A DNA stretch of 64,000 nucleotides, taken from the NCBI GenBank assembly GCA_000004985.1, contig GG738897.1, one strand, 5' to 3'. The notes beneath the pieces are model-generated. The model saw nothing but the letters and a program-made list of their open reading frames with translations, was not told the origin of the DNA and did no database searches. A program made the translations under genes and the position numbers. The DNA is from Naegleria gruberi. Taxonomy: Eukaryota. Of the stretch, positions 11,952-64,000 are shown piece after piece. Within the stretch, counting starts at the first letter, position 1, and the number at the start of each line of letters is the position of its first letter.

Positions 11952-12347
11952 TTATTGATTCTTACAACCACCAGCATTTGCTTTTCCTTCTTCCTTTGGT
12001 GCTGTCCTAGAGAGTTTCTTTCCTTCAATAACATCCTGAGCAGTACAAACAATTCCATCAAATTGACCAACAGCTACACCATGTCGAGCCAATTCAATAG
12101 CTTTTTCAGCTCCCTTTTCCTTGTTAAATTGTATCACAGCAGAGCTGAAAACGAGGGCATTAGCTTTGATCACATCAATAGAACTAATTCCTCCACTAAC
12201 TTTCTCAAAGAATTCTCGAATTTGTTTTTCTTCAGCAACGAAAGGCAGTTCAAATACTACAATTGTTCGTTTCAAAAGTTTTTCACCTTCCTTATCGTTG
12301 AGCATTTCTTCAAGTTTTTGTTTTATAAGATTTCTTGATGTAGACAT
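11952..12347 (-). CDS. Small hypothetical protein, possibly an RRM-like fold (RNP2-like TIVVFELPF, RNP1-like SAVIQFNK)
   Basis: 131-aa ORF with start ATG and ordinary composition. The opposite-strand ORFs 11955..12338 and 12121..12375 are low-complexity and rejected. Weak pattern match only. Confidence 0.35.
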   Translation of the reverse strand: MSTSRNLIKQKLEEMLNDKEGEKLLKRTIVVFELPFVAEEKQIREFFEKVSGGISSIDVIKANALVFSSAVIQFNKEKGAEKAIELARHGVAVGQFDGIVCTAQDVIEGKKLSRTAPKEEGKANAGGCKNQ

Positions 12348-49921: not shown

Positions 49922-52900
49922 TCAAATAAAACTTTGATTTGATTTTGTTGGAGATGAAGAAGGTGAAGAATTAGTTGATAATTGTTTTAAATTTTTCAAT
50001 CTTGGACTATTTGGACTTGAATTTCCATTTAAATTATTATTGGTAAAAGGTGATTCTAATGAAATATTTCCATTTATAGTATTATTATTAACAATTGAAC
50101 AAATATTTGGAATTGGTAAATTAATATTTCCACTATTTAATTTAATTAAAGAATATTGTTGTAATTTTTTAATAATATTTACATAAGAATTATTTAAATC
50201 ACCATTTAAAAGTAATAAAATAATAAAAAATAAATCATCTGAATATTGAATTAAAGGTTTTTTAAATTTAAATGTTAAAAATGTTTTTAATTGATTAACA
50301 TCAATATTTGTATTAATTAAATCCTTATTTGGATTAATTTCCAAAATTAGAAGTTGTAATAAAATAAATCCAATACATTTTATATCTTTTTTAAAATAAT
50401 CATTTTGATTTTGATTTAAAAGTTCATTCATATTTTCATATTGAATTTGTTCAAATACTAAATTTGTATCGTGATGTTTTTTTAACATTGAATTAATTCT
50501 TTGTTTTAAAATTCTATTTTGGTTTTGAATTTCTAAATTTGTAAAATCTTGTAAATATTCAATTCCACTTAAAATTATTTCAAAATCTTTTTCATTAAAA
50601 AGTAAAGTTTCTAAATTTAAATGATTATGTACTTGTTGCCTTTTATGGAGATATTGAATAACTTCAATTAATTGTTTTCCTATTTTGTAAATTTCAATTT
50701 CTTCAAATAATATTGTTTGATTTTGTAAAAATTGTTGAAATGTTGGATAATAGTTTGTAACATAATAATAATTATCATTAAAATAAAATTCTTCTATTTT
50801 TGATTGTAAATATTTATGTTTAAATATATTATATTTAGAAATCTAATTAAATTAAATATAAAAATATAAAATAAATATTAAATTAAATATTAAATTAAAT
50901 TAAAATATATTATAAACATACCATATTTGTAAATTCTGATAAAGTATTAAATTTACTAATAAATGAAATTTCTAATTTTTGTAAATCATTTACTTTATAA
51001 ATAGTATATTGATTTAAATGTTTAATATTTTCAATAATTTTAAATCTTCCATTATAAATAAATTGATCATTAAATTTCTTTAAAAAATTAAAAATTGCCT
51101 TTTTCTTTTTTCTTGAACTTTTTAATTCTGGTAATTTTAATAAAACTTTATCAAATCTATTTAAACATTCCTTTCTAGCATTACTATCATCTAAATGATT
51201 TACAAAAACATTTAAAATATCAACAATTGTATCAATAGTTGGTCTTGTTAATGGATGTAATTGTAACATTGATATTACTAATCGAATTATTAATTCTGGT
51301 ATTCCATTATTTTTTAACTTGTTACAAATAATTGAATGAGTTTCATTTTCATCGGTTTTTATAGCTTCATGCATTAAAAATTTAGTTTCTTGATTTTTTA
51401 CATTTCTAATAATTTGAATTTCCAATGTTAATAATTCATAAAATACACATCCCAATGAAAATATATCTATTATTATTATTATTATTATTATTATTGGTAT
51501 GAATTAGTATGAATTAGTATCATGATGATGATGATGATATTAAGGTGATGATAAATCCAATTAAATGTTATTAAAATATTAAATATATTAAAATATTAAA
51601 CATACCACTATTTTTATCAATTTTAAAATTACCAGTTGAACATTCAGGTGATAAAGTAATTGGTGTTCCTCTAAAACTAATTGTATTTAAATCATTTGTT
51701 GAAGTTAATAAACCAAAATCACCAATTGCAACTTCTTCCATATTTAGAGTTGAAGAATAATTAATTAAAATATTTTCATTTTTTAAATCTCTATAAATTA
51801 AATTATTAAAATGAATTTGTTGTAAACCTAAACAAATTTGTAATAAAATATTTAACCAATTTGGAACTGTTTTTAAATTTCTTAATTTTGAATTTGTAAT
51901 TAATTGTTGTAATGAAGATTTATAAAAAGGCATAACAAGACAACATGAATATTCATCATTTTTCTTTTCAATTGAATAATCTAAATATGGTATTAGATTT
52001 GGATGTTTTAAATTTGAAACTTGTTCAATATTCCATTGTAATTCTTTTAATTTAATTGAATCTAAATTTTGTATTAATTTTTTAATAGCAACATCTCCAA
52101 ATTGAATTGATTTACAATGAAATACAGTTCCTTCTCCTCCACTTGCTATTTTTTTTAAAACAACATATTTACCATTACATAATGTATGTACTGTTATGGA
52201 TTTTAACCAAATTGGTTCAATTTGAATTAAATTTAAAATTAAATATTTTAATAACATTGAAATATGATTTCCTTTAGAAAATTCAGGTAATTTACCAATT
52301 ATTTGTTTACCAAATATCCACATATGTTTTAATGTATAACTAACTAATTGTATATTAAATATTTCCTTCTTTTTCTTTTTTTGATTATTCAATTTTTTTA
52401 AATCTTGTTCAATAAAACTTTTTATAGCTTCCATACTTGTTTGAAAGGCAATTTGTTCATCTTTAGATATTTTAGAATCGGGAAATTTAACCCTATCAGA
52501 TTTTACAAGTAATTTTATAGCTGCCAATATTGAACATGTTAAAATAAAGATTAAATGTGAACATGATTTTTGTGATAATAATGTATAATATCTATTCAAT
52601 TCTATATCTATATTATTACTAGTAGTAGTTGTATTATTTGTATTATTTGTATTATTTGTATTATTTGTATGAGTATTATTAGAATTATTAGAATTATTAG
52701 ATGATGAATTACCCTGATCAATAGTTGCTCTAAATGAAGTTGTAGGTAAATGTAAATTAATTTCCTCAGTGAGTGGATTATGATCATTGGAATTGAAAAA
52801 ATTATTCATACTACTTCTATTTTGATTATTTTGATTATTATTATTGAATGATTTTAAAACTCTACCAAATGTTGCAGGTGTTGGTAATTGTTTTCTATCA

Positions 52901-55366
52901 ACAAAACCAAAAGCATCAATAACTAATTTTTGTAAATCATCAAAATTATTTGGTATTTGAGTAAAGAATGGTTCATTAGAATCTTCATCAATTGAACTTA
53001 AAATTGTATCTTCTAAATATTGAATAAAAGTTTCAATTATAATTGTAATATTTTGTTCAAATGCAATCATTAGAGTATAAATTAATTCATTCAATCTTGT
53101 TGAATTTTGAAAGAAATTTGTTATATTAATATAAACAAACATGAAATCCTTATTTGATTTTAAATTTAAATGATGATTTTGTATAAAATCTTTCATTCTC
53201 TTTTTAATTAAAAATAAATAATCAAAATTTTGACCAAATTTATCAATTTGTAATTTTTGAAATTCAATTTGATTTTGTAAATAAGCATCAGAAGAAGCTT
53301 TAAAATAAAATTCAAAATATTTTAAATCATATTCACCTTGTATCATATCATATAATGAAAGTGATTGAAAATAATCTAATAATTTTTTATAATTAATTGA
53401 TTTTTCTGTAATTGAATGTAATGTAAAATAATTATCTAATAATTGAATTTTACTAAATTTATCCATTGGATATATTGCTGATTTTAATACTGTTATTACT
53501 TTACCATCACATAAAAAATCAAAATGATCAATTTTATAATAATATTGATTAAAATATTTTGTAAAAAATCTACTTTTAATATTTCCATTTATAGTAATTA
53601 TTTTACCTCTATCTGCTATAAATAAATCATTTTCTAATAATTCTGTTACATAATGTGTTAATAATATTTTAATTGGTTTATAATTTGTATATTCTCCACT
53701 ACAATATACACTTCCTGAATTACTTAAAAAGTAACAATTATTTTTAGAACATTCAATATCTATAATTGGTATATCTTGTTCTATAAAATATGTTAATTTT
53801 TCAAATTCTCCATATATATCATTAGTATGATTTAATCCAAATTTACCAAATTGATTTTCACCATATACATATATATTAAATGTTGATGTTAAAATTAAAA
53901 TACTTTTATCATGACATGAAATTTTTTTAATAAAATCTTTTTGAATATTTCTATTATTATTTAAATTATTTATATTATTTAAATTATTATTTAAATTTAT
54001 ATTATTTATATTATTATTTAAATTATTTATATTATTTAAATTAGAATTATTTAAATTAGAATTATTTAAAATTAATTGATTATTAAAATTTGGAAATGGA
54101 ATTGGTTTTGTACAAAAATTTTTAACATCTTTACATTTAATTCCAATTTCATCATCATTACAAATTCCACAAATAAATAAATCAAAATCTTTTGTAATCA
54201 TTAAAACATAATATTTTGTTAATGATGAAATTGAATGAATATTTGATGTAATAAGTGTTGGTGTTTTAATTACTTTTAATCTATTATCTGTATTACTTGT
54301 TATATCTGAATAATAATTAATTCCACATCCATATAAATTACCACTTTCTATATTATTTTAAATATTATTTATTTAATAAATATATTTAATATTATATTTA
54401 GTTCTATATTATTTTAAATATATTGTAAACATACCAGTTAAAAATAAAGTACTTTCATATAAAGTTGTAATTTTCTTAATTTTTTCACCTTTAAAATTAT
54501 TAAATTGTAATCTAGTTGGTATTTGAGTGAGAGGTTTATTATGTCCTAATCCTAATTGATAATTATTATTATTACCTGCTACCCAAATACTTTCATCCTC
54601 TTTTATTAAATATTAAATATTAAATATGATAAATATTTAAAAACATACCCATTACTATAAAAGTACAATAATTTTCAGTATAAATATTTCTAATTCTAGA
54701 AACATCAATTGAATCTCTATATTCATTCTTTACACCTAACATTATTAAATGATTTTCATACACTTCAGAGTCTTGTTGATCATCAAATTGTTGTTGATCA
54801 TCATCACCATATAATATATAATCATCATCATCAATGGCTACTAAATATTGTCCATAATTAGTATTCTCTTTAATAATACCACTATTTAATATTAATGTAC
54901 TTGATCCACTCAATTTATTTAAGTGATTAATTTTATAAAACAAATATTCTACATTAATAGTATTCTTATTGATCATATATTTACTTAGTGATGATAATGC
55001 TGATGCTGATGCTTTTATATTTTGATTAGATGATGATCCTACTCCTACTATAATATTACTACCACTATTACTACCAGGTGATGATACAGGTGAATCTATT
55101 GGTGTAGCAATTGATGATCTAAAGCCTAGTGCATTGTTATAATTACCTGAAAGGCTTGTTGATGATGATGATGGTGATATTGAAGTATCATTTTTATGAA
55201 TACTAAAATATTCTTGATCCGAAGTAAATAATTTTAATAAATTCTGAGAACTTGTAGTACTGCCACTAGATGTTGACAGTCTATTATTATTGTTATTGGT
55301 GAGAATGGATGGTGAAGAATTGGAGGGTGATAGAGAAGGTGAATTTAATGAATGTCTTGAAGACAT
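49922..55366 (-). CDS. Very large (1696 aa) RCC1-repeat + protein kinase + second kinase-like (pseudokinase?) domain protein with poly-Asn tracts, 5 exons: 54649..55366, 54435..54599, 51606..54347, 50922..51466, 49922..50842
   Basis: Introns 54600..54648 (G|GTATGT..AAAAG), 54348..54434 (GTATGT..TATAG), 51467..51605 (GTATGT..AATAG), 50843..50921 (GTATGT..AATTAG). Exon lengths sum to 5091 nt, or 1696 codons plus stop. RCC1 blades (GNNNNYQLGLGHNK, GNLYGCGINYY, YVYGENQFGKFGL). Kinase: GGEGTVFHCK..VAIKKL, HFNNLIYRDLKNENILIN, IGDFGL, GTPITLSPE, DIFSLGCVFYELL. Second degenerate kinase-like lobe (YLHKRQQVHNHLNLETLLFNE). Confidence 0.7.
52612..52700 (-). repeat. Tandem 11-mer (tattatttgta)x4 plus (attattaga)n within kinase exon 3, encoding (NNT)n / (SNN)n
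   Basis: gtattatttgtattatttgtattatttgtattatttgta at 52624-52664. Translates on the minus strand to TNNTNNTNNTNNT within ...SNNSNNSNNTHTNNTNNTNNTNNTTTTSNN. Confidence 0.8.
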
Positions 55367-55555
55367 TTTTTATACTGTCTGACACTTGGCGTTTGATTGA
55401 TCAACATTGTGGATAATTGATGGATAAAAACTCTTGAGCAGCAAAGAAAGAGCGGGAAGGTAGTTAACTTCCTTTTTTGAGTGTTAGCCACAATATTATG
55501 AATCAAATTTTGACAACAAAACAATTTAGTGTTGATTATAAATTTAAATGAATCA
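55367..55555. promoter_or_regulatory. Divergent (bidirectional) promoter spacer between the kinase gene (minus, ATG 55366) and the C5-methyltransferase gene (plus, ATG 55556)
   Basis: 189-nt spacer of moderate GC (gacacttggcgtttgattgatcaacattgtgg...agagcgggaaggtag) lying between two extremely AT-rich head-to-head genes. Confidence 0.5.
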
Positions 55556-58500
55556 ATGAGTGAATCAGAATCATCACAAGAACAAGTTGAAATTCTAGAT
55601 GATTTATCATATATACATAATTATAAAGATGATATATTATTATTAGATGAATTTTATTTATTAAATGATGAAAATGTTTACATTTCATTAACTGATAATA
55701 ATAATAAACAATCTATTTCTATATATGGAATATTATATAATAGTAATAAAATACCAAATAATTTAATTATAGATATGAATAATTTAATTCATGAAGATTT
55801 AAATATAATAATTTCAAAATTAAAATTAGAATCAAAATTTATTGGAAAATTAATTAATTTTAATATTGAATATGATAAATGTAAAAAACCAATAATTTTA
55901 TTTACTATAAATAGAAATGATAAAATATTTGAATGTGAATGTCTAAGATGTGATTCAGATTATTTTAAAATTTTTAAAAAAATTTATAATTTATCTTCAA
56001 TTACATTTTGTTTAATTTTATCTATTTTTAAATTTCCTAAACATGGAATTAATAAAATTATAAATGAATCAAATTCAATTTCAAAAGAATTTAAATTAAA
56101 TATAAATATAAATTTAGAAATAATTAAAAATAATTATAATTTTATTATTGATGAAATTCATAAATTAAATAATGAAAAAATATTTAAAAGTAAATTTATT
56201 AATGAAATTTCAAATATTTTATTTAATAATTCTGAAATGGAAGAATATTCATCAGATTCTTCAGATTCATCTGATTATGATTATAAATTAACACCTAAAA
56301 AGGAAAGAAAACAATTAAAAAGAAAAAATGAAAATTTAAATTCTAAAAAAAGAAAAAAATTTAAAGAATTTAAAAATGAATTTGAAATTGAATTTTTAAA
56401 AGATGAAAATTCTATTAAAATTAATAATGAAATTATTCAAGATGGAGAAGCAATATATTTATTTCCATATTTAGAATTATTTCCAGATTTTTTAAAAAGT
56501 AAAATTGATATAAATTATTATCCTTATTTTATTTTTCAAATTAAATTTAAAAATAATGAAATTTATGGTAAAAGATTATTTAGACATTATGATTTAGCCT
56601 TTTTAAGTTTAAAAAATAATTTAAATATTTTAACTAGAGATGTAAATGAATTATTTTTAGATGAAAATGAAATTTTAATTCCAATACAAAAATACTATAT
56701 AAGGAAATGTTATGTTTTTTATTTAATTGAAACAAATGAATTTGAATCAATTTCTAAAGATATAAGAGAACGAAGAGATATTTTTTATTGTAAACATTTA
56801 ATTAATATTAAAAATAATTTTCAAAATTTTGAATTACTAAATATAGAAAAATTATATTGTAAAAATATGTTTAATTTAATTGATAATTATTCTAAATTTA
56901 TTTTAAATAATTTAATTATTGAAAATGAAAATACAAGAAATTTATTAATTGGATTGGATTTATTTGGTGGATGTGGAGGTTTATCTTTTGGTTTATCTAA
57001 ATCTGGAATTAATATGAAATATGCAATTGATAATAATATTGATGCTATAAATAATTTTCAATTAAATTTTAAAAATTCAAATACTTTTTGTAAAGATTCA
57101 ATTAAATTTTTACAAAAAGTTAAAATTATTAATGAATTGAGAAAATTATGTANNNNNNNNNNNNNNNNNNNNNNNNNNNNNNNNNNNNNNNNNNNNNNNN
57201 NNNNNNNNNNNNNNNNNNNNNNNNNNNNNNNNNNNNNNNNNNNNNNNNNNNNNNNNNNNNNNNNNNNNNNNNNNNNNNNNNNNNNNNNNNNNNNNNNNNN
57301 NNNNNNNNNNNNNNNNNNNNNNNNNNNNNNNNNNNNNNNNNNNNNNNNNNNNNNNNNNNNNNNNNNNNNNNNNNNNNNNNNNNNNNNNNNNNNNNNNNNN
57401 NNNNNNNNNNNNNNNNNNNNNNNNNNNNNNNNNNNNNNNNNNNNNNNNNNNNNNNNNNNNNNNNNNNNNNNNNNNNNNNNNNNNNNNNNNNNNNNNNNNN
57501 NNNNNNNNNNNNNNNNNNNNNNNNNNNNNNNNNNNNNNNNNNNNNNNNNNNNNNNNNNNNNNNNNNNNNNNNNNNNNNNNNNNNNNNNNNNNNNNNNNNN
57601 NNNNNNNNNNNNNNNNNNNNNNNNNNNNNNNNNNNNNNNNNNNNNNNNNNNNNNNNNNNNNNNNNNNNNNNNNNNNNNNNNNNNNNNNNNNNNNNNNNNN
57701 NNNNNNNNNNNNNNNNNNNNNNNNNNNNNNNNNNNNNNNNNNNNNNNNNNNNNNNNNNNNNNNNNNNNNNNNNNNNNNNNNNNNNNNNNNNNNNNNNNNN
57801 NNNNNNNNNNNNNNNNNNNNNNNNNNNNNNNNNNNNNNNNNNNNNNNNNNNNNNNNNNNNNNNNNNNNNNNNNNNNNNNNNNNNNNNNNNNNNNNNNNNN
57901 NNNNNNNNNNNNNNNNNNNNNNNNNNNNNNNNNNNNNNNNNNNNNNNNNNNNNNNNNNNNNNNNNNNNNNNNNNNNNNNNNNNNNNNNNNNNNNNNNNNN
58001 NNNNNNNNNNNNNNNNNNNNNNNNNNNNNNNNNNNNNNNNNNNNNNNNNNNNNNNNNNNNNNNNNNNNNNNNNNNNNNNNNNNNNNNNNNNNNNNNNNNN
58101 NNNNNNNNNNNNNNNNNNNNNNNNNNNNNNNNNNNNNNNNNNNNNNNNNNNNNNNNNNNNNNNNNNNNNNNNNNNNNNNNNNNNNNNNNNNNNNNNNNNN
58201 NNNNNNNNNNNNNNNNNNNNNNNNNNNNNNNNNNNNNNNNNNNNNNNNNNNNNNNNNNNNNNNNNNNNNNNNNNNNNNNNNNNNNNNNNNNNNNNNNNNN
58301 NNNNNNNNNNNNNNNNNNNNNNNNNNNNNNNNNNNNNNNNNNNNNNNNNNNNNNNNNNNNNNNNNNNNNNNNNNNNNNNNNNNNNNNNNNNNNNNNNNNN
58401 NNNNNNNNNNNNNNNNNNNNNNNNNNNNNNNNNNNNNNNNNNNNNNNNNNNNNNNNNNNNNNNNNNNNNNNNNNNNNNNNNNNNNNNNNNNNNNNNNNNN

Positions 58501-59497
58501 NNNNNNNNNNNNNNNNNNNNNNNNNNNNNNNNNNNNNNNNNNNNNNNNNNNNNNNNNNNNNNNNNNNNNNNNNNNNNNNNNNNNNNNNNNNNNNNNNNNN
58601 NNNNNNNNNNNNNNNNNNNNNNNNNNNNNNNNNNNNNNNNNNNNNNNNNNNNNNNNNNNNNNNNNNNNNNNNNNNNNNNNNNNNNNNNNNNNNNNNNNNN
58701 NNNNNNNNNNNNNNNNNNNNNNNNNNNNNNNNNNNNNNNNNNNNNNNNNNNNNNNNNNNNNNNNNNNNNNNNNNNNTATATATTTATTTAATTTTATTTA
58801 ATTTTATTTATATTTATTATATATTTATTTTATATTTAATATTTAATATTTTAAAATAGAATCAAGAATATTAACAGTTAGAGAATGTACTAGAATTCAA
58901 GGATTTCCAGATACATTTATATTTGTAGATGATAAAGTACCATATTGTAAAAGTCAAAAATTAAAAGAGAAATATACTCAAATAGGAAATGCAGTACCAG
59001 TTGTATTTGGATATCAATTTGGAATTGAATTTAGAAAAGCATATTCTAAATTAAAAAATATTAATAATGATTTTAAATCAATATCAAAATTATTTGAAAC
59101 TATTTTTTTAAATGAAACTAGAGAATTTATGGAAAATAATGATTCATCTTTTATAGAATCAACTCAAATTTGGACTGTTAAAGATTTTGAAATACCAGAT
59201 GATTTAAAAGAAGGTTTTTTATTACCTTTTAGACAAGATGAATTGGATTTTCAAAAATCACAAGAATTTTTACAATATTTATCAGAACCAGTAAAAGAAA
59301 ACACTAAAATTACTACTAAAATTACTTCTAAAAAGACAATAACAACAACAACAATTAGGAATAGTAATGTTGCAGATGAGGACATTGTATCATCAACAGA
59401 TGAAGAGGAAGAATTTGGTTATACTTCTGATTTGGAAGAGGAATTAATAACAAGTTCGATGAGTGAAATTGAAGATAGTGATGATAGTACCATTTAA
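55556..59497 (+). CDS. Dnmt1/MET1-like DNA (cytosine-5)-methyltransferase with a 480-aa Lys/Asn/Ile-rich N-terminal region; exon 1 runs from 55556 into assembly gap 57153..58776, last exon 58860..59497
   Basis: Motif I LIGLDLFGGCGGLSFGLSKSGINMKYAIDNNIDAINNFQLNFKNSNTFCKDSIKFL (compare Dnmt1 LDVFSGCGGLSEGFHQAGI...[31 protein letters not shown]). After the gap and an AT-rich 3' intron end (..TTTTAAAATAG at 58859): ESRILTVRECTRIQGFPDTFIFVDDKVPYCKSQKLKEKYTQIGNAVPVVFGYQFGIEF, i.e. motifs IX (RE.AR.QGFPD.F.F) and X (R.QIGNAVPP). Motifs IV (PCQ), VI (ENV), VIII and the target-recognition domain would lie inside the N-run. ORF 59129..59497 is the acidic C-terminal tail of the same exon. Confidence 0.7.
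57153..58776. other. Assembly gap (1624 N) inside the methyltransferase gene
   Basis: Uninterrupted run of n; the flanks are in different exons of one gene. Confidence 0.99.
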
Positions 59498-59875: not shown

Positions 59876-62526
59876 GATCTATTCTTTGCTCAATGCTGGA
59901 GTTGGTAAGAGTAGATTTATTAATACAATGATTGAGGCTGATATTTTACCTTCTTCAAGTGGAAATAATCATGTTACCAAGAGTTTAATTAATCTTCAAT
60001 ATGGCAAAGATTATTCAATGGAAATTATTCTTTGCACAGATGAAGAGTTGAGAGAAAGATGTCAAGAAACACAATATCAACTCGATCCAAATTATATTAT
60101 ATTCCTAAATTATATAGTGGTATAACTCGTTTCAAAAATGCACAAAGTCTGAAAGTAATATTGAACAAAGACAATTATCCATGACCAAGGATGATATGTA
60201 TCATGTCAAATTATTTCGTATAACTGCTCCAATTCCACTATTGAAAGAACAAAAATTGGAAATTATTGATGTACCAGGTTTGTTCAGTGGTGAATACAGT
60301 TTACTTTTTAATAGATTAGCAATAGAAGCAAGTTTAATTTCAGATACCATTAATATATTTCCAAATAATTTTCGTTCTATTTTCCCAACAGACATATTTG
60401 ATATTGTTGGAAAGGTATTCTCACATCACTCTGCACAACGTTCTCCTAAAATGTTTGTTTATACTTATGGAGGAAAATATACTAGTATGAAGAATGCTTC
60501 AATAGAATTCTTAAATTCTCTTTCAGAAAAAGAGGTCACTGAAAAAGAAATAGAATTCTCTCAACTTTTAGAAGATTATTTTGATTACAAGTTTGATGAT
60601 GTACCTTTTGATAAATCAAATAGAGTCAGTGAAATTATTGGCAAGGTGGAATTTGTAGAACCAAAAGTTCAAGTTTTAGAATTTTTGAAAGATAATTTCA
60701 TGTTATATCCAATTCCAAATTTAGATTCTAAAAATCATTCAAATGAGTTAAAGTTGACTAAAAGATATTTCAAGTTGACTATAATTAGAGATAAACTCAT
60801 TAAAGCTACAAGACTAGTTGAAGAGATTAGTAGAACAGCAATTCTTTGCTTACCTAAACTTATTTCTAGCTCCAAATATCAGTCTAAAAAGCTTGATGAA
60901 TTTGTTGATGAGATAATGACAGAATGTCAAGAAATAATAGAATTCTTACTTGGTAAATTTAAAGACTAATAATTATTCAAAGAAGGAAAAAGCAGGTAAA
61001 ATTGATAAATGGTTGGGAGATAACTTTTTAACAGAAGAGTTAGAATTTAATAGTGAGTCTAAAGCTCACAACAGTATTTTAAAGCATTTAAAACTATTAG
61101 AAGACAATATTAGAACATTAGCAGAAACATATTTTGTTTCAGAATCAAGTGGAAATGATTGTGAAGATTACAAGGGTTTTAAAGCAATGGTTTTACCAAT
61201 GTTTGATGTTGAGAGTGGTGATCATGTCATTCTTGCAACAGAAACCAAAGGTGTATTGAAAGAATTATTAGGAACCTATTTAAATTCTATTAGTAGTAAC
61301 AAATATGAACCTAATTTCAATCAACATTATGCTCACTTGCATTTATTTGAAACAAATTCCAAAAAATCTCTATCTCTACCAACTAAATCTTCCTATTCAG
61401 ATATTGATGAAATGAAACAAGCAAAGTTATTTAATAATAGAGATGACGTTAATAATTGTTTTAGACATGATAAGACTATGGCTAAAATTGTTCATGAATT
61501 AATGTCAACCATTCCACTTCAATCTAATCTTATTACAATTTCTCNNNNNNNNNNNNNNNNNNNNNNNNNNNNNNNNNNNNNNNNNNNNNNNNNNNNNNNN
61601 NNNNNNNNNNNNNNNNNNNNNNNNNNNNNNNNNNNNNNNNNNNNNNNNNNNNNNNNNNNNNNNNNNNNNNNNNNNNNNNNNNNNNNNNNNNNNNNNNNNN
61701 NNNNNNNNNNNNNNNNNNNNNNNNNNNNNNNNNNNNNNNNNNNNNNNNNNNNNNNNNNNNNNNNNNNNNNNNNNNNNNNNNNNNNNNNNNNNNNNNNNNN
61801 NNNNNNNNNNNNNNNNNNNNNNNNNNNNNNNNNNNNNNNNNNNNNNNNNNNNNNNNNNNNNNNNNNNNNNNNNNNNNNNNNNNNNNNNNNNNNNNNNNNN
61901 NNNNNNNNNNNNNNNNNNNNNNNNNAATTTCTCAATATATTCTCAAGATGAACAAATCAATCTATTCCAATGAGATTGCTGAATGTGAAAACATTAAGAA
62001 TATACTCACTTCTCAAGATAAGAATCGTTGGATTTCTGATATTTCACCATTTTTAGAAAATTTAAAAATAGTTGATAATGAAATTAATTTGAGAAAAAAA
62101 CAAACATCAAATTTAGAATCAACTTTCAAATCTTCATTCTTTTCAATGAATAAGGGTAGAGTTAGTTGTTATGATGGACGTGATACTAAATCATATGGAG
62201 ATAAGATTTATTCAAGAGAGGGATTTAATTACATGATTTCCAATGGAGTGAGTGGTGTTGAAACATTTTATCTTCCATCTATGAAGGATATTTTACCAAT
62301 TCCTGACAATTTAATTATGAAGAAATATGATGAATCAAATCAAGATTTCAATTTGAAAACCTTAATGTTGAAATTCAGATGTAACATGTTATCAAATGGA
62401 GTTGGAGGTTTCTTTCATGTTGGATTTAAATTTAAAAAGAAGATACAAAGAAAACGTTGCAGAAGAACTTCAAAGAGAAAGACTAATTCAAGTTCTTCTT
62501 CTACCATCAATAAGAAGAGAAAGTAA
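59876..62526 (+). CDS. Dynamin-superfamily large GTPase, fragmented model: exon pieces 59876..60116, 60190..60952, 60993..61544 (runs into gap 61545..61925), continuing 61926..62526 with a basic C-terminus; 5' exon not found
   Basis: G1 NAGVGKSRFINTMIEADILPSSSGNNHVTKSLINLQYGKD parallels dynamin [36 protein letters not shown]. G3 EIIDVPGLFSG lies about 95 aa downstream after removing the candidate intron 60117..60189, which is the dynamin-type spacing. Frame changes at 60118-60125 and 60950-60969 are resolved by candidate introns 60117..60189 (weak GTGGTA donor) and 60953..60992 (GTAAAT..AAAAAG), or are assembly indels. ORFs 60181..60969, 60950..61951 and 61948..62526 belong to one gene. Confidence 0.45.
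61545..61925. other. Assembly gap (381 N) inside the dynamin-like GTPase gene
   Basis: Uninterrupted run of n. Confidence 0.99.
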
Positions 62527-62821
62527 TCCAATTAATTGTAAATATGTAAACCAAATAATTGTAAATATATTGTGTAAATAAATATTGAGATTATAAAGAA
62601 ATATCTGGATTAAATCATTTACAGCTAACACTTTTAGAACAGTGTTTTTAGTGTTCAGCAAGGGGAAAAAGCGTTTCACCACCAACACATGGTTTATCAA
62701 AATTACAATAATCTCCCCATCTGTATTGAATAAAAGAAACAAGAACAATCATAATAGTAATATGGCAAATGTTACAACAAATGCAAAGTAATAGTAGAGG
62801 AGGTGTTTAACAATAATTTAT

Positions 62822-64000
62822 TTAAATAATTAATAAACCAGATTTAAAAGCATGTACAAATTCATTAAAATCAATAATACCATTCTTATCTGTATCTAAT
62901 TGATCAAAAATAATTCTAGTTTCATTCAATAATTGATTTTCATTTAAATTTTGAAATTTACTCATTGATCTTCTCATATGTAATAATTCATCAAATGTAA
63001 TTGAATTATCCTTATTAATATCAAATGTATTAAATAAATGATATAATACTTGTTCTGTATTATTATTATTATTATTTAAATTATTATTATTATTTAAATT
63101 ATTATTATTATTTATATTATTATTTAAATTATTATTATTATTATTATTTAATTGATTATAAAACATTAAAAAAGCAACAACAAATTCTCTAAAATCAATT
63201 TTACCAGAATGATCAGTATCAAATAAATTGAAATGATTTTCAATAAATAATTTATCATTAATATTAAATAATTTCATAATAATATTAATAAAATCATTTC
63301 TAGATAAAGTACCAGTTTTTTTATCTGAAATATTTTGAAAATATTCTAATAATTTGTTAAATAAATCTGAATCTATATTTGTATTTTGAGTTAATTGTTT
63401 AAAAGTTTTATATTTTAATTCAATTTCTTCATTTTCTAAATCAATTAAAGATTTACTTGATAAAGTTAAAGTTTTATAATAATCTTGATCATTTAAATTT
63501 GAAATATTTTGAATTGATTGTAAAATTTTAGATAATTTTATAATTTTATCTTTTTTTTCTTGATATTGTAATTTAAATGAATTTAATAATGGATTTGTTT
63601 GTTTTTCAATTAAATTAAAAGATTGATTTAAAATTTCTTGAATTAAATTTTCAATTTTTAAAGAAATTTCTTTAAAATTAAATTTATCAAATAAATTTTT
63701 TAAAAATAATAATAAAATATTTAAATATTCTTCTAATGATCTTGTTTGTTGTTTTGAATATTTCCAATTATTTATAGATTCTCTAATTGGTGAATTTACA
63801 ATTCCTTTTAATAAATTTAAAATTTCAATTATATTTGAAATATTAAATTTTTGTAAAATAATTAATTGATAATTTATAATTTCATTTTTAGTAACTCCAC
63901 TAAATAAAGAACTTCCTAATTGAGTAGATGGTAATAATTTACCATTTGTATTATTTAAAATTGATAATAAACAATTAATTGTATAATAAATTAATTCAAA
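62822..64000 (-). CDS. Coiled-coil protein with C-terminal EF-hand calcium-binding domains and poly-Asn insert; 5' end lies beyond the window (partial)
   Basis: The reading frame is open on the minus strand from 62822 to the window edge (...KIENLIQEILNQSFNLIEKQTNPLLNSFKLQYQEKKDKIIKLSKILQ...SDKKTGTLSRNDFINI...). EF-hand loops DTDHSGKIDFREF, DINKDNSITFDEL, DTDKNGIIDFNEF. ORF-track entry 62822..63277 is only the segment after an internal Met. Confidence 0.55.
   Translation of the reverse strand, partial: FELIYYTINCLLSILNNTNGKLLPSTQLGSSLFSGVTKNEIINYQLIILQKFNISNIIEILNLLKGIVNSPIRESINNWKYSKQQTRSLEEYLNILLLFLKNLFDKFNFKEISLKIENLIQEILNQSFNLIEKQTNPLLNSFKLQYQEKKDKIIKLSKILQSIQNISNLNDQDYYKTLTLSSKSLIDLENEEIELKYKTFKQLTQNTNIDSDLFNKLLEYFQNISDKKTGTLSRNDFINIIMKLFNINDKLFIENHFNLFDTDHSGKIDFREFVVAFLMFYNQLNNNNNNNLNNNINNNNNLNNNNNLNNNNNNTEQVLYHLFNTFDINKDNSITFDELLHMRRSMSKFQNLNENQLLNETRIIFDQLDTDKNGIIDFNEFVHAFKSGLLII
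63060..63150 (-). repeat. (AAT/ATT)n microsatellite-like tract encoding poly-Asn in the EF-hand gene; a similar tract at 53930..54080 lies in the kinase gene
   Basis: tattattattattatttaaattattattattatttaaattattattattatttatattattatttaaattattattattattattattt translates to NNNNNNLNNNINNNNNLNNNNNLNNNNNN. Confidence 0.8.

What the first reader, a model, noticed from the sequence alone, without database searches (positions are those of the whole stretch)
55556..59497. Large Dnmt1/MET1-like cytosine-5 DNA methyltransferase with an unrecognisable 480-aa N-terminus and its catalytic core hidden in a 1.6-kb gap
Motif I (LDLFGGCGGLSFGL...AIDNNIDAINNFQLNFKNSNTFCKDSIKFL) is upstream of the N-run. Motifs IX/X (ILTVRECTRIQGFPDTFIF...YTQIGNAVPVVFGY) are downstream. 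Together they show an unambiguous C5-MTase whose closest pattern is the Dnmt1/MET1 class, not Dnmt2.

The N-terminal 480 residues are Lys/Asn/Ile-rich with no recognisable RFTS, CXXC or BAH pattern by eye. The PCQ, ENV and target-recognition segments are entirely inside the gap at 57153-58776, so activity and specificity cannot be judged.

AT-rich amoeba-like genomes typically carry only a Dnmt2-type enzyme. A second, large maintenance-type MTase encoded by a gene with almost no CpG would therefore be noteworthy. It could also be part of whatever process generated the AT-rich island.
Basis: partly seen in the sequence, partly recalled or inferred. Interest (0 to 1): 0.8.

Follow-up and report, generated by a model that had tools for sequence, protein, structure and literature searches.

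The report
Unannotated second DNMT1-family methyltransferase of Naegleria
The gene is real: it is a gap-broken, unannotated copy of a DNMT1-type DNA cytosine methyltransferase in the amoeboflagellate Naegleria gruberi, an organism already known to have such enzymes and methylated DNA, so it is mostly ordinary apart from its extreme A+T-richness.

Summary
An ORF starts at 55556, carries C5-methyltransferase motif I, and runs into a 1,624-N gap (57153-58776). It resumes after an intron 3' end (58859) with motifs IX and X and stops at 59497.

The window is Naegleria gruberi (Heterolobosea), not a Dnmt2-only amoebozoan. The N-terminus is recognisable with tools: an RFTS/RFD-like domain, a basic linker and one BAH domain precede motif I. 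There is no CXXC.

The gene is the "B" paralogue of a heterolobosean DNMT1-family pair. Its orthologues are in N. lovaniensis (42% identity, syntenic) and on a metagenome contig (44%). Both have intact PCQ, ENV and QxRxR motifs, so the gap most likely hides an active core. The "A" paralogue is the canonical DNMT1 orthologue.

Published work (PMC12344493) already reports DNMT1 enzymes and all-context 5mC in N. gruberi, so the class is not new. This locus, however, has no methyltransferase protein model; only a 122-aa tail is annotated.

Two leads remain. The gene body is extremely A+T-shifted (GC3 2.3%), and only in N. gruberi. The family also carries a possibly chromodomain-like insert where plant CMTs have their chromodomain.

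Interest is moderate.

The parts
55367..55555 (.). Divergent intergenic or promoter region shared with the RCC1/kinase gene on the minus strand. Its GC is normal (30-36%), unlike both flanking gene bodies.
55556..57152 (+). First exon: 532 open codons running from the start ATG into the gap. GC 14.5%, GC3 2.3%.
55628..56230 (+). RFTS/RFD-like domain, approximately aa 25-225.
   Evidence: BLASTP of aa 92-240 onto aa 108-270 of P0109, which holds that protein's Pfam RFD (107-189), gives E 1e-5. Foldseek to the bovine DNMT1 RFTS structure 6pzv_G gives E 1.8e-4. Model pLDDT is 75-93 over aa 140-220.
56231..56386 (+). Low-confidence linker: an acidic Ser/Asp run followed by a Lys/Arg-rich, NLS-like stretch (KKERKQLKRKNENLNSKKRKKFKEFK).
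56387..56845 (+). Single BAH domain, approximately aa 278-430. It carries a B-paralogue-specific insert (LELFPDFLKSKIDINY).
   Evidence: Pfam PF01426 gives 23.1 bits, E 7e-5, below the cut-off. BLASTP E 5e-33 onto the BAH of P0109. Foldseek hits EBS, BAHCC1, polybromo and ORC1 BAH domains. Alignment.
56942..57152 (+). Start of the C5-methyltransferase domain. It holds motif I (DLFGGCGGLSFGL) and the following FCKDSIKFL segment.
57153..58776 (.). Assembly gap of 1,624 N. By orthology it hides the chromo-like insert, motifs IV (PCQ), VI (ENV) and VIII, the target-recognition domain and one to three introns.
   Evidence: Orthologue content.
58777..58859 (+). 3' end of an A+T-rich intron (acceptor ...aaaatag, phase 1). 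An N. lovaniensis intron lies at the same place and phase.
58860..59011 (+). Motif IX (RILTVRECTRIQGFPD) and motif X (QIGNAVPV). Between them lies the B-paralogue-specific 9-aa insert (PYCKSQKLK).
59012..59497 (+). Conserved C-terminal extension and acidic tail, ending at the stop (59495-59497). GC returns to normal from about 59250.
59129..59497 (+). The only public protein model at this locus: XP_002672500.1 / NAEGRDRAFT_72509, a 122-aa 'predicted protein'. It starts after motif X and has no Pfam domain.

Best explanation
This is the Naegleria gruberi copy of a second, divergent DNMT1-family cytosine-5 DNA methyltransferase, here called paralogue B.

**Architecture.** RFTS-like domain, basic linker, one BAH domain, then the C5-methyltransferase domain and a conserved acidic C-terminal extension. 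The whole protein is probably 1,100-1,150 aa. A scaffold gap splits the gene, so the reference annotation holds only a 122-aa tail.

**Shown here.**
- Host identity.
- Motifs I, IX and X.
- The BAH and RFTS-like domains.
- Orthology and upstream synteny with N. lovaniensis.
- Purifying selection on the visible parts.

**Inferred from orthologues.** The gap encodes an intact catalytic core (GPPCQGFS, ENV, QSRSR).

**Inferred from established DNMT1/CMT enzymology.**
- The enzyme flips the target cytosine out of the helix.
- The motif IV cysteine attacks C6, and the methyl group is transferred from AdoMet bound by motifs I and X.
- The RFTS and BAH domains couple activity to chromatin marks.

**Speculative role.** Together with the canonical A paralogue, it contributes to the heterochromatin-restricted, all-context 5mC reported for N. 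gruberi.
For: **Host.** ORF 59129-59497 is 100% identical to N. gruberi XP_002672500.1.

**Methyltransferase motifs.** PF00145 matches both sides of the gap.

**Homologues.** An exhaustive HMMER search with the N-terminal 532 aa gave:
- N. lovaniensis XP_044544034.1, E 2e-107, 42% identity over aa 5-532.
- Pieces of a metagenome orthologue (P0003, P0004, P0008).
- Willaertia magna and N. lovaniensis 1,188-1,230-aa proteins with Pfam RFD + BAH + DNA_methylase.

**Domains in the window protein.** BLASTP to P0109 covers its BAH and motif I (E 5e-33), its RFD (E 1e-5) and its C-terminal region (E 3e-15). An AlphaFold model built with the 11-sequence alignment has pLDDT 61.5. Its Foldseek hits are MET1 and DNMT1 (3e-10), ZMET2 (5e-8), DIM2 (2e-5), isolated BAH domains and the DNMT1 RFTS (1.8e-4).

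**One gene, not two.** Both halves carry B-specific indels that are shared with the orthologues. The order of parts is colinear in L001 and L002. The intron before motif IX has the same position and phase as in N. lovaniensis.

**Catalytic core in orthologues.** GPPCQGFS, ENV and QSRSR are intact in L002 and in N. lovaniensis.

**Synteny.** Window 50531-54952(-) matches L001 3136-9948(-) at 45-71% aa identity across most matches (one distal piece ~30%).

**Selection.** The window protein keeps 88% of the 95 columns that are invariant in five other homologues, and 71% of the columns where the two other B orthologues agree.

**Literature.** DNMT1 enzymes and CX-context 5mC in H3K9me3/H3K27me3 regions are reported for N. 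gruberi (PMC12344493).
Against: - Motifs IV, VI and VIII and the target-recognition domain are not visible in this genome, because they lie in the gap.
- No expression data were available here.
- The N. lovaniensis orthologue shows a reading-frame switch upstream of motif IV. This could be a real frameshift rather than an assembly error.
- The extreme A+T shift (GC3 2.3%) could mark a silenced, heterochromatic locus.
- Pfam does not call RFD on the window protein directly, and it calls BAH only below the gathering score.
- The specific role in non-CG methylation is inference only.
Confidence: 0.85

Rival explanations
1. The locus is a decaying or catalytically dead DNMT1-family paralogue. It would be a pseudo-enzyme or a silenced gene inside an A+T-mutated heterochromatic island.
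For: - GC is 11-17% and GC3 is 2.3%, and FYMINK residues make up 53% of the protein, against 27-36% in 18 normal genes of the window.
- The catalytic core is unseen.
- The N. lovaniensis orthologue has an apparent frameshift and is annotated as two genes.
- Methylated genes in N. gruberi are mostly silent (PMC12344493).
Against: - Open frames of 532 and 212 codons persist in DNA where about 1 codon in 10 would be a stop by chance.
- 88% of family-invariant positions are retained, which is no worse than in the orthologues. The replacements are conservative or follow A+T-rich codons.
- Motifs I, IX and X are canonical.
- The intron position is conserved.
- The metagenome orthologue is fully intact with four canonical GT-AG introns.
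Confidence: 0.1
2. The two flanks of the gap belong to different genes or were wrongly joined by scaffolding. In that case there is no single large methyltransferase gene.
For: - The join is an estimated-size N gap.
- The public annotation treats the downstream part as a separate 122-aa protein.
Against: - Both flanks match the same B-type orthologues best, in the same order and strand. They include B-specific indels in the BAH domain and between motifs IX and X.
- The distance across the gap is about 1.7 kb. The same interval is about 1.1 kb in L002 and about 1.4 kb in L001.
- Genes on both sides are syntenic with relatives.
Confidence: 0.03
3. The gene is a bacterial or giant-virus C5-methyltransferase acquired laterally as part of a foreign A+T-rich insertion.
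For: - With the short fragments alone, the best PDB hits are bacterial: M.HaeIII at 33 bits and 3g7u at 21.7 bits.
- The island's composition differs sharply from the rest of the window.
- Viral insertions are known 5mC targets (PMC12344493).
Against: - RFTS-like and BAH domains are present.
- The gene has a spliceosomal intron.
- Orthologues occur in N. lovaniensis, Willaertia and other Naegleria-like genomes.
- The island's genes are colinear orthologues of N. lovaniensis genes that have normal GC.
- The full-length orthologue scores far higher to CMT, MET1 and DNMT1 than to bacterial enzymes.
Confidence: 0.02

Closest known systems
Heterolobosean DNMT1-family paralogue B (N. lovaniensis XP_044544034.1 plus the adjacent 435-aa model; ENA contig ERZ27315067 k141_819941)
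   Same: - 42-44% identity over about 670-690 aligned residues.
- The same domain order.
- The same B-specific indels in the BAH domain and between motifs IX and X.
- The same intron position before motif IX (N. lovaniensis).
- The same upstream RCC1/kinase neighbour (N. lovaniensis) and a downstream dynamin-family neighbour (L002).

   Different: - The N. gruberi copy has GC3 of 2.3%, against 42% in the L002 coding sequence and 29-38% GC for the N. lovaniensis gene.
- Its protein is strongly enriched in Asn, Lys, Ile, Phe and Tyr.
- It lacks two N-terminal introns that the relatives have.
- Its middle third is unsequenced.
Canonical DNMT1/MET1 (mammalian DNMT1, Arabidopsis MET1) and the heterolobosean A paralogue (N. 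lovaniensis XP_044555355.1, W. magna KAL9657727.1)
   Same: - The RFTS, BAH, C5-methyltransferase order.
- Motif I with GCGGLS.
- The F-x-x-D segment after motif I.
- Motifs IX and X.
- Foldseek top hits are MET1 and DNMT1.
   Different: - Only one BAH domain is detectable, not two.
- There is no CXXC and no KG-repeat linker.
- Identity to the A paralogues is about 28%.
- The B orthologue scores lower to DNMT1 (116 bits) than the A paralogue does (235 bits).
Plant chromomethylases (ZMET2/CMT3)
   Same: - A single BAH domain lies directly upstream of the methyltransferase domain.
- The best PDB sequence hit of the full B orthologue is ZMET2 (160 bits).
- The 55-75-aa insert between motifs I/II and IV sits exactly where CMTs carry their chromodomain. 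In L002 the insert aligns to the ZMET2 chromodomain (z = 6.3, 0 of 2,000 shuffles).
   Different: - CMTs have no RFTS domain.
- Pfam Chromo does not match any heterolobosean insert, and a profile of the inserts finds no chromodomain in the PDB.
- Two of the three aromatic-cage positions appear substituted in the L002 alignment.
- In the window itself this segment lies in the gap.
Dnmt2/TRDMT1
   Same: It shares only the generic C5-methyltransferase motifs.
   Different: Dnmt2 has no N-terminal regulatory region. The B orthologue scores only 32-34 bits to DNMT2 structures. N. gruberi has a separate DNMT2 (Table S1 of PMC12344493).

Membership tests
DNMT1 family (DNMT1/MET1/CMT/DIM2 clade) | C5-methyltransferase domain: AdoMet-binding motif I and motifs IX and X | tested here: met
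   PF00145 scores 22.7 bits (aa 467-517) and 41.3 bits (C-terminal piece, aa 2-48).
DNMT1 family (DNMT1/MET1/CMT/DIM2 clade) | Catalytic motifs IV (PCQ cysteine), VI (ENV) and VIII (QxRxR), and the target-recognition domain | not testable with these tools
   These lie in the N gap 57153-58776. They are present and intact in the orthologues L002 and N. lovaniensis.
DNMT1 family (DNMT1/MET1/CMT/DIM2 clade) | BAH domain N-terminal to the methyltransferase domain | tested here: met
   Pfam BAH scores 23.1 bits, E 7e-5, below the 30.8 cut-off. BLASTP gives E 5e-33 onto the Pfam-significant BAH of P0109. Foldseek hits isolated BAH domains at 1e-5 to 1e-3.
DNMT1/MET1 proper | Replication-foci targeting (RFTS/RFD) domain | tested here: met
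   BLASTP of aa 92-240 onto the RFD region of P0109 gives E 1e-5. Foldseek to the DNMT1 RFTS structure 6pzv_G gives 1.8e-4. Pfam RFD is only 14.8-14.9 bits in the B orthologues and gives no direct hit on the window protein, so support is indirect.
DNMT1/MET1 proper | Two tandem BAH domains; CXXC zinc finger (holozoan DNMT1) | tested here: not met
   Only one BAH stretch is found in the window protein and in all heterolobosean homologues, and there is no CXXC hit. CXXC is described as a holozoan addition (PMC12344493).
Chromomethylase (CMT) | Chromodomain embedded between methyltransferase motifs I/II and IV | tested here: inconclusive
   In the window the segment is in the gap. In orthologues, the L002 insert aligns to the ZMET2 chromodomain (z = 6.3). 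Other inserts give z of 3.4 or less. Pfam Chromo and a PDB profile search find nothing.
Chromomethylase (CMT) | No RFTS domain; plant-lineage clade | tested here: not met
   An RFTS-like domain is present. The host is a heterolobosean. No phylogeny was run.
Dnmt2/TRDMT1 | Stand-alone ~350-400-aa methyltransferase without N-terminal regulatory domains | tested here: not met
   A 460-aa RFTS and BAH extension precedes motif I. The orthologue scores 32-34 bits to DNMT2, against 116-160 bits to DNMT1 and CMT.
Prokaryotic or viral orphan C5-methyltransferase | Bare catalytic domain, no introns, no eukaryotic chromatin modules, patchy phylogeny | tested here: not met
   The gene has an intron and RFTS and BAH domains. 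It has syntenic orthologues in related genera.

The most novel reading that the evidence does not exclude
The B paralogue combines a DNMT1-type RFTS domain with a CMT-type architecture: one BAH plus a chromodomain-like module embedded in the catalytic domain. It would then be a chromomethylase-like enzyme outside plants.

On this reading it is the missing activity behind the puzzling all-context (CX), H3K9me3-associated methylation of N. gruberi. Proteome-based surveys missed it because of the assembly gap.

A further, weaker possibility is that the N. gruberi-specific A+T collapse of this gene and its neighbours is a footprint of deamination of all-context 5mC. The methylation system would then be eroding the locus that encodes it.
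Probability: 0.2. Interest if true: 0.7.

Novelty: new member of a known kind. Interest (0 to 1): 0.4.

Why it matters
N. gruberi is currently the reference discoban for reconstructing ancestral eukaryotic DNA methylation. Its methylome is unusual: low-level 5mC in every CX context, confined to H3K9me3/H3K27me3 regions, and attributed to DNMT1 enzymes alone (PMC12344493).

Proteome-based counts list a single DNMT1 for N. gruberi (Table S1 of that paper). The only protein model at this locus is a domain-less 122-aa tail. A complete, correctly annotated sequence of this second, fast-evolving paralogue is therefore needed before anyone can assign CG versus non-CG, or maintenance versus de novo, activity to the two enzymes.

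The finding also flags a practical annotation error in N. lovaniensis, where one gene is split into two models. Finally, it exposes a striking species-specific A+T-rich island made of intact, selected genes. That island is unexplained and could be checked directly against the published methylome.

Tried and rejected
**Approaches that gave nothing useful**
- The word-indexed homologue search with the 532-aa N-terminus returned nothing. The 8,000 candidates were probably swamped by low-complexity words. The same happened with the W. magna protein, which returned only its own paralogue.
- Exact-protein look-ups of three window ORFs were not on record.
- Single-sequence AlphaFold gave pLDDT 35 and was unusable.
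- PDB phmmer with only the visible fragments could not separate bacterial from DNMT1 matches. M.HaeIII and 3g7u came first.

**Chromodomain tests**
- Pfam on five inserts gave no hit.
- An insert profile against the PDB found no chromodomain.
- Only the pairwise test for the L002 insert was significant.

**Hypotheses rejected**
- A dictyostelid or amoebozoan origin, suggested by the Asn runs and A+T-richness, is rejected by the 100% match to N. gruberi.
- A foreign or giant-virus insertion as the cause of the AT island is rejected by colinear orthology with normal-GC N. lovaniensis genes.
- Fungal-type RIP is rejected: (CA+TG)/(AC+GT) is 1.5-2.5, not below 1.

**Literature**
- A search for A+T-rich islands in N. 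gruberi found nothing relevant.
- I could not establish whether the 'two DNMT1 enzymes' in the text of PMC12344493 include this locus.
Full report
**1. Observation**

The region reads as the first stage described it.
- An ATG at 55556 opens a frame of 532 codons that runs without a stop into a block of 1,624 N at 57153-58776.
- After the gap come 83 bases of very A+T-rich, repetitive sequence. They contain an in-frame TAA (58844-58846) and end in ...aaaatag.
- Coding resumes at 58860/58862 and continues for 211 codons to TAA at 59495-59497.
- Pfam PF00145 (C-5 DNA methylase) matches both flanks. Profile positions 4-52 (motif I) match aa 467-517 at 22.7 bits. Profile positions 276-313 (motifs IX and X) match the C-terminal piece at 41.3 bits.
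- At 14.5% GC roughly one random codon in ten is a stop, so a 532-codon open frame is not chance.

**2. Whose genome it is**

- The 122-aa ORF at 59129-59497 is 100% identical to NCBI XP_002672500.1 (NAEGRDRAFT_72509), a 'predicted protein' of Naegleria gruberi on a 326,913-bp scaffold.
- That fragment starts after motif X and has no Pfam domain. It is the only public protein model at the locus.
- An exhaustive HMMER search of 1.84 billion cluster representatives with the 532-aa N-terminus found nothing closer than 42% identity full-length (63% over a 106-aa fragment). The N-terminal exon is therefore not represented in public protein sets.

**3. What the N-terminus is**

The HMMER search returned true homologues:
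- N. lovaniensis XP_044544034.1 (P0002), E 2e-107, 42% identity over aa 5-532.
- Three fragments (P0003, P0004, P0008) that sit on one 7.25-kb metagenome contig.
- 1,188-1,230-aa proteins of Willaertia magna (P0005, P0118) and N. lovaniensis (P0109, XP_044555355.1).

The long proteins have significant Pfam DNMT1-RFD (36-47 bits), BAH (43-61 bits) and DNA_methylase (188-192 bits) domains.

With compositional adjustment, BLASTP aligns the window protein to P0109 in three places:
- aa 286-530 onto P0109 400-630, its BAH and motif I, E 5e-33.
- aa 92-240 onto P0109 108-270, its RFD, E 1e-5.
- The C-terminal piece onto P0109 991-1121, E 3e-15.

Scanned alone, the window's aa 281-463 give Pfam BAH at 23.1 bits (E 7e-5, below the 30.8 cut-off).

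A single-sequence AlphaFold model was useless (pLDDT 35). With the 11-sequence alignment A1 the model reached pLDDT 61.5, with 75-93 over aa 140-220 and 70-86 over most of aa 280-440. Foldseek against the PDB then gave:
- MET1 and DNMT1 first (E 3e-10 to 1e-8).
- ZMET2 (5e-8).
- DIM2 (2e-5).
- Isolated BAH domains of EBS, BAHCC1, polybromo and ORC1 (1e-5 to 1e-3).
- The isolated DNMT1 RFTS domain 6pzv_G (1.8e-4).

So the '480-aa unrecognisable N-terminus' is an RFTS-like domain, an acidic/basic linker and one BAH domain. There is no CXXC and no second BAH.

**4. One gene, and what is probably in the gap**

*The metagenome orthologue (L002).* I reconstructed it from contig ERZ27315067 k141_819941. 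Five exons and four GTAAGT/GTATGT...AG introns give a 1,097-aa protein.

*The N. lovaniensis orthologue (L001).* It lies on PYSW02000041.1 and is annotated as two genes, a 728-aa model and a 435-aa model.

*Catalytic motifs.* Both orthologues contain GGPPCQGFS (motif IV), MENV (VI), PQSRSR (VIII), and motifs IX and X nearly identical to the window's.

*B-specific features.* In a six-sequence alignment the window shares two indels with these two proteins only. One is an insert in the BAH domain (LELFPDFLKSKIDINY). The other is a 9-residue insert between motifs IX and X (PYCKSQKLK). Identity is 43.9% to L002 and 42.3% to N. lovaniensis, against about 28% to the other (A) paralogues.

*Intron.* The intron that ends at 58859 is in phase 1, immediately before ...RILTVRE. 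N. lovaniensis has a phase-1 intron at the same place.

*Synteny.* Upstream, window 50531-54952(-) is colinear with the N. lovaniensis RCC1/kinase genes at 45-71% aa identity across most matches (one distal piece ~30%). Downstream, a Dynamin_N ORF follows, as it does in L002.

*Gap size.* The gap interval is about 1.7 kb. The same interval is about 1.1 kb in L002 and about 1.4 kb in L001.

I conclude that the two flanks are one gene. The gap most probably hides an intact catalytic core plus one to three introns, giving a protein of about 1,100-1,150 aa.

**5. Is it still under selection?**

The window protein keeps 84 of 95 columns (88%) that are invariant in the five other heterolobosean homologues. 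It keeps 71% of the columns where the two other B orthologues agree, and the reciprocal values are 66-68%. The eleven replacements are conservative or go to A+T-rich codons (G to N, R to K, A to S, L to I). This argues against a pseudogene.

**6. Which family**

- The canonical (A) paralogue P0109 scores best to mammalian DNMT1 (235 bits, with RFTS, BAH1 and methyltransferase all aligned), then MET1 (187), then ZMET2 (178).
- The complete B orthologue scores best to maize ZMET2, a chromomethylase (160 bits). MET1 (125) and DNMT1 (116) follow, far above M.HaeIII (79), DIM2 (53), M.HhaI (38) and DNMT2 (32).
- The bacterial top hits seen with the short visible fragments are therefore an artefact of fragment length.

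The gene is a member of the DNMT1 family. It is neither Dnmt2 nor a bacterial or viral orphan.

A second Naegleria-like organism (SRR29240419) also carries both A and B copies, as does N. lovaniensis. The A/B pair is therefore conserved in the genus.

**7. The chromo-like insert: a lead, not a result**

All heterolobosean homologues have 55-75 extra residues between motif I/II and motif IV, the site of the chromodomain in plant CMTs.
- For: phmmer aligns the L002 insert to the ZMET2 chromodomain (VEK...K[IV]xW...W...NL).
- For: the L002 insert alone against that ZMET2 segment gives z = 6.3, with 0 of 2,000 shuffles reaching the score.
- Against: the other inserts give z of 3.4 or less.
- Against: Pfam Chromo finds nothing, and a profile of the inserts finds no chromodomain in the PDB.
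- Against: two of three aromatic-cage positions look substituted.

In the window the segment is inside the gap. I rate this inconclusive.

**8. What is already known**

PMC12344493 (Mol Biol Evol 2025) reports the following for N. gruberi:
- It has 0.28% 5mC spread over all four CX contexts.
- It has 447 hypermethylated regions that coincide with H3K9me3 and H3K27me3.
[quoted passage not shown] The only model at the present locus has no methyltransferase domain, so that single count must be the A paralogue elsewhere. Whether the 'two' in the text includes this locus I could not establish.

Either way, a DNMT1-class enzyme in Naegleria is expected, not surprising. The same paper treats the chromodomain as a plant CMT addition and does not mention an insert in the Naegleria enzymes.

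**9. Mechanism**

*Shown here:* the AdoMet-binding motif I, motifs IX and X, and the BAH and RFTS-like modules.

*Inferred from orthologues:* the motif IV cysteine, and the ENV and QxRxR motifs.

*Inferred from established C5-methyltransferase chemistry and DNMT1/CMT structures:*
- The target cytosine is flipped out of the helix.
- The motif IV cysteine attacks C6, and the methyl group is transferred from AdoMet.
- RFTS and BAH act as chromatin-reading or autoinhibitory modules.

*Speculative:* B is the heterochromatin-directed, context-relaxed partner of a canonical maintenance enzyme A.

**10. The AT island (unexplained)**

*Composition.*

| Sequence | GC | GC3 | FYMINK |
|---|---|---|---|
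| Methyltransferase N-terminal exon | 14.5% | 2.3% | 52.8% |
| RCC1/kinase gene | 18.8% | 4.8% | 45.8% |
| EF-hand gene 62822-63277 | 14.3% | 5.3% | 53.6% |
| 18 ORFs of the first 49.6 kb | 27-36% | 15-31% | 27-36% (one at 43%) |

*Sharp boundaries.* The shared promoter (55367-55555), the first ~400 nt of the kinase gene and the last ~250 nt of the methyltransferase gene are at normal GC.

*Species-specific.* The orthologous genes are not shifted. N. lovaniensis is at 29-38% GC, and the L002 coding sequence is at 39% GC and 42% GC3. The island's genes are colinear orthologues of N. lovaniensis genes. It is therefore an N. gruberi-specific compositional collapse of otherwise conserved and still-selected genes, not a foreign insertion.

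*Not RIP.* The RIP indices are not fungal-RIP-like.

*Open question.* Deamination of all-context 5mC in a hypermethylated block is an attractive explanation, but I could not test it here.

**11. Verdict**

The gene is a new, unannotated member of a known kind. Interest is moderate (0.4). It rests on the annotation gap in a reference methylome organism, the CMT-like lead and the unexplained AT island.

Noticed in passing
window 50000-54900, 55556-59250, 62750-64000: These are N. gruberi-specific A+T-rich blocks (GC 10-24%, GC3 2-7%) made of intact, conserved genes with Asn-rich products. The boundaries are sharp, and the shared promoter at 55367-55555 stays at 30-36% GC. Orthologous genes in N. 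lovaniensis and on a metagenome contig have normal GC. The pattern is not RIP-like, and the cause is unknown.
   Followed up: partly
L001 10001-14029 (N. lovaniensis PYSW02000041.1): The orthologous methyltransferase is annotated as two genes: XP_044544034.1 (728 aa) and a 435-aa PF00145 model. The reading frame switches near a CCCC run at about 12300-12330 (...FSQLQQQ / SPNYKMLLSKFLEK). This is either an assembly indel or a real frameshift.
   Followed up: partly
L002 2290-2560; P0005 aa ~640-700; P0109 aa ~630-700: Every heterolobosean DNMT1-family protein seen carries a 55-75-aa insert between methyltransferase motifs I/II and IV, at the position of the plant CMT chromodomain. Only the L002 insert shows significant similarity to the ZMET2 chromodomain (z = 6.3). 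Pfam Chromo does not match any of them.
   Followed up: partly
window 1-64000: CpG is depleted throughout the window (observed/expected mostly 0.1-0.6 per kb), not only in the methyltransferase gene.
   Followed up: no
L001 14041-19173 (-) and 20819-22349 (-): In N. lovaniensis the methyltransferase gene is followed tail-to-tail by a 1,710-aa SNF2-family helicase gene. Further on lies a gene with a Phage_integrase (tyrosine recombinase) domain. Neither has a counterpart in the window, where a dynamin-family gene follows instead.
   Followed up: partly
window 61545-61925: A second assembly gap (381 N) interrupts the ORFs of the gene downstream of the dynamin-like ORF.
   Followed up: no
window 55556-57152 versus L001 and L002: The N. 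gruberi gene lacks two N-terminal introns that are present at equivalent positions in both orthologues: after ...IMSA/...VIRL and after ...NVIE/...GLEK. This indicates intron loss in N. gruberi, or gain in the relatives.
   Followed up: no
L004 and L005 (Logan SRR29240419): One sequencing sample of an unidentified Naegleria-like organism contains both an A-type gene (RFD, BAH, DNA_methylase) and a B-type gene. The two-paralogue arrangement therefore extends beyond N. lovaniensis.
   Followed up: partly
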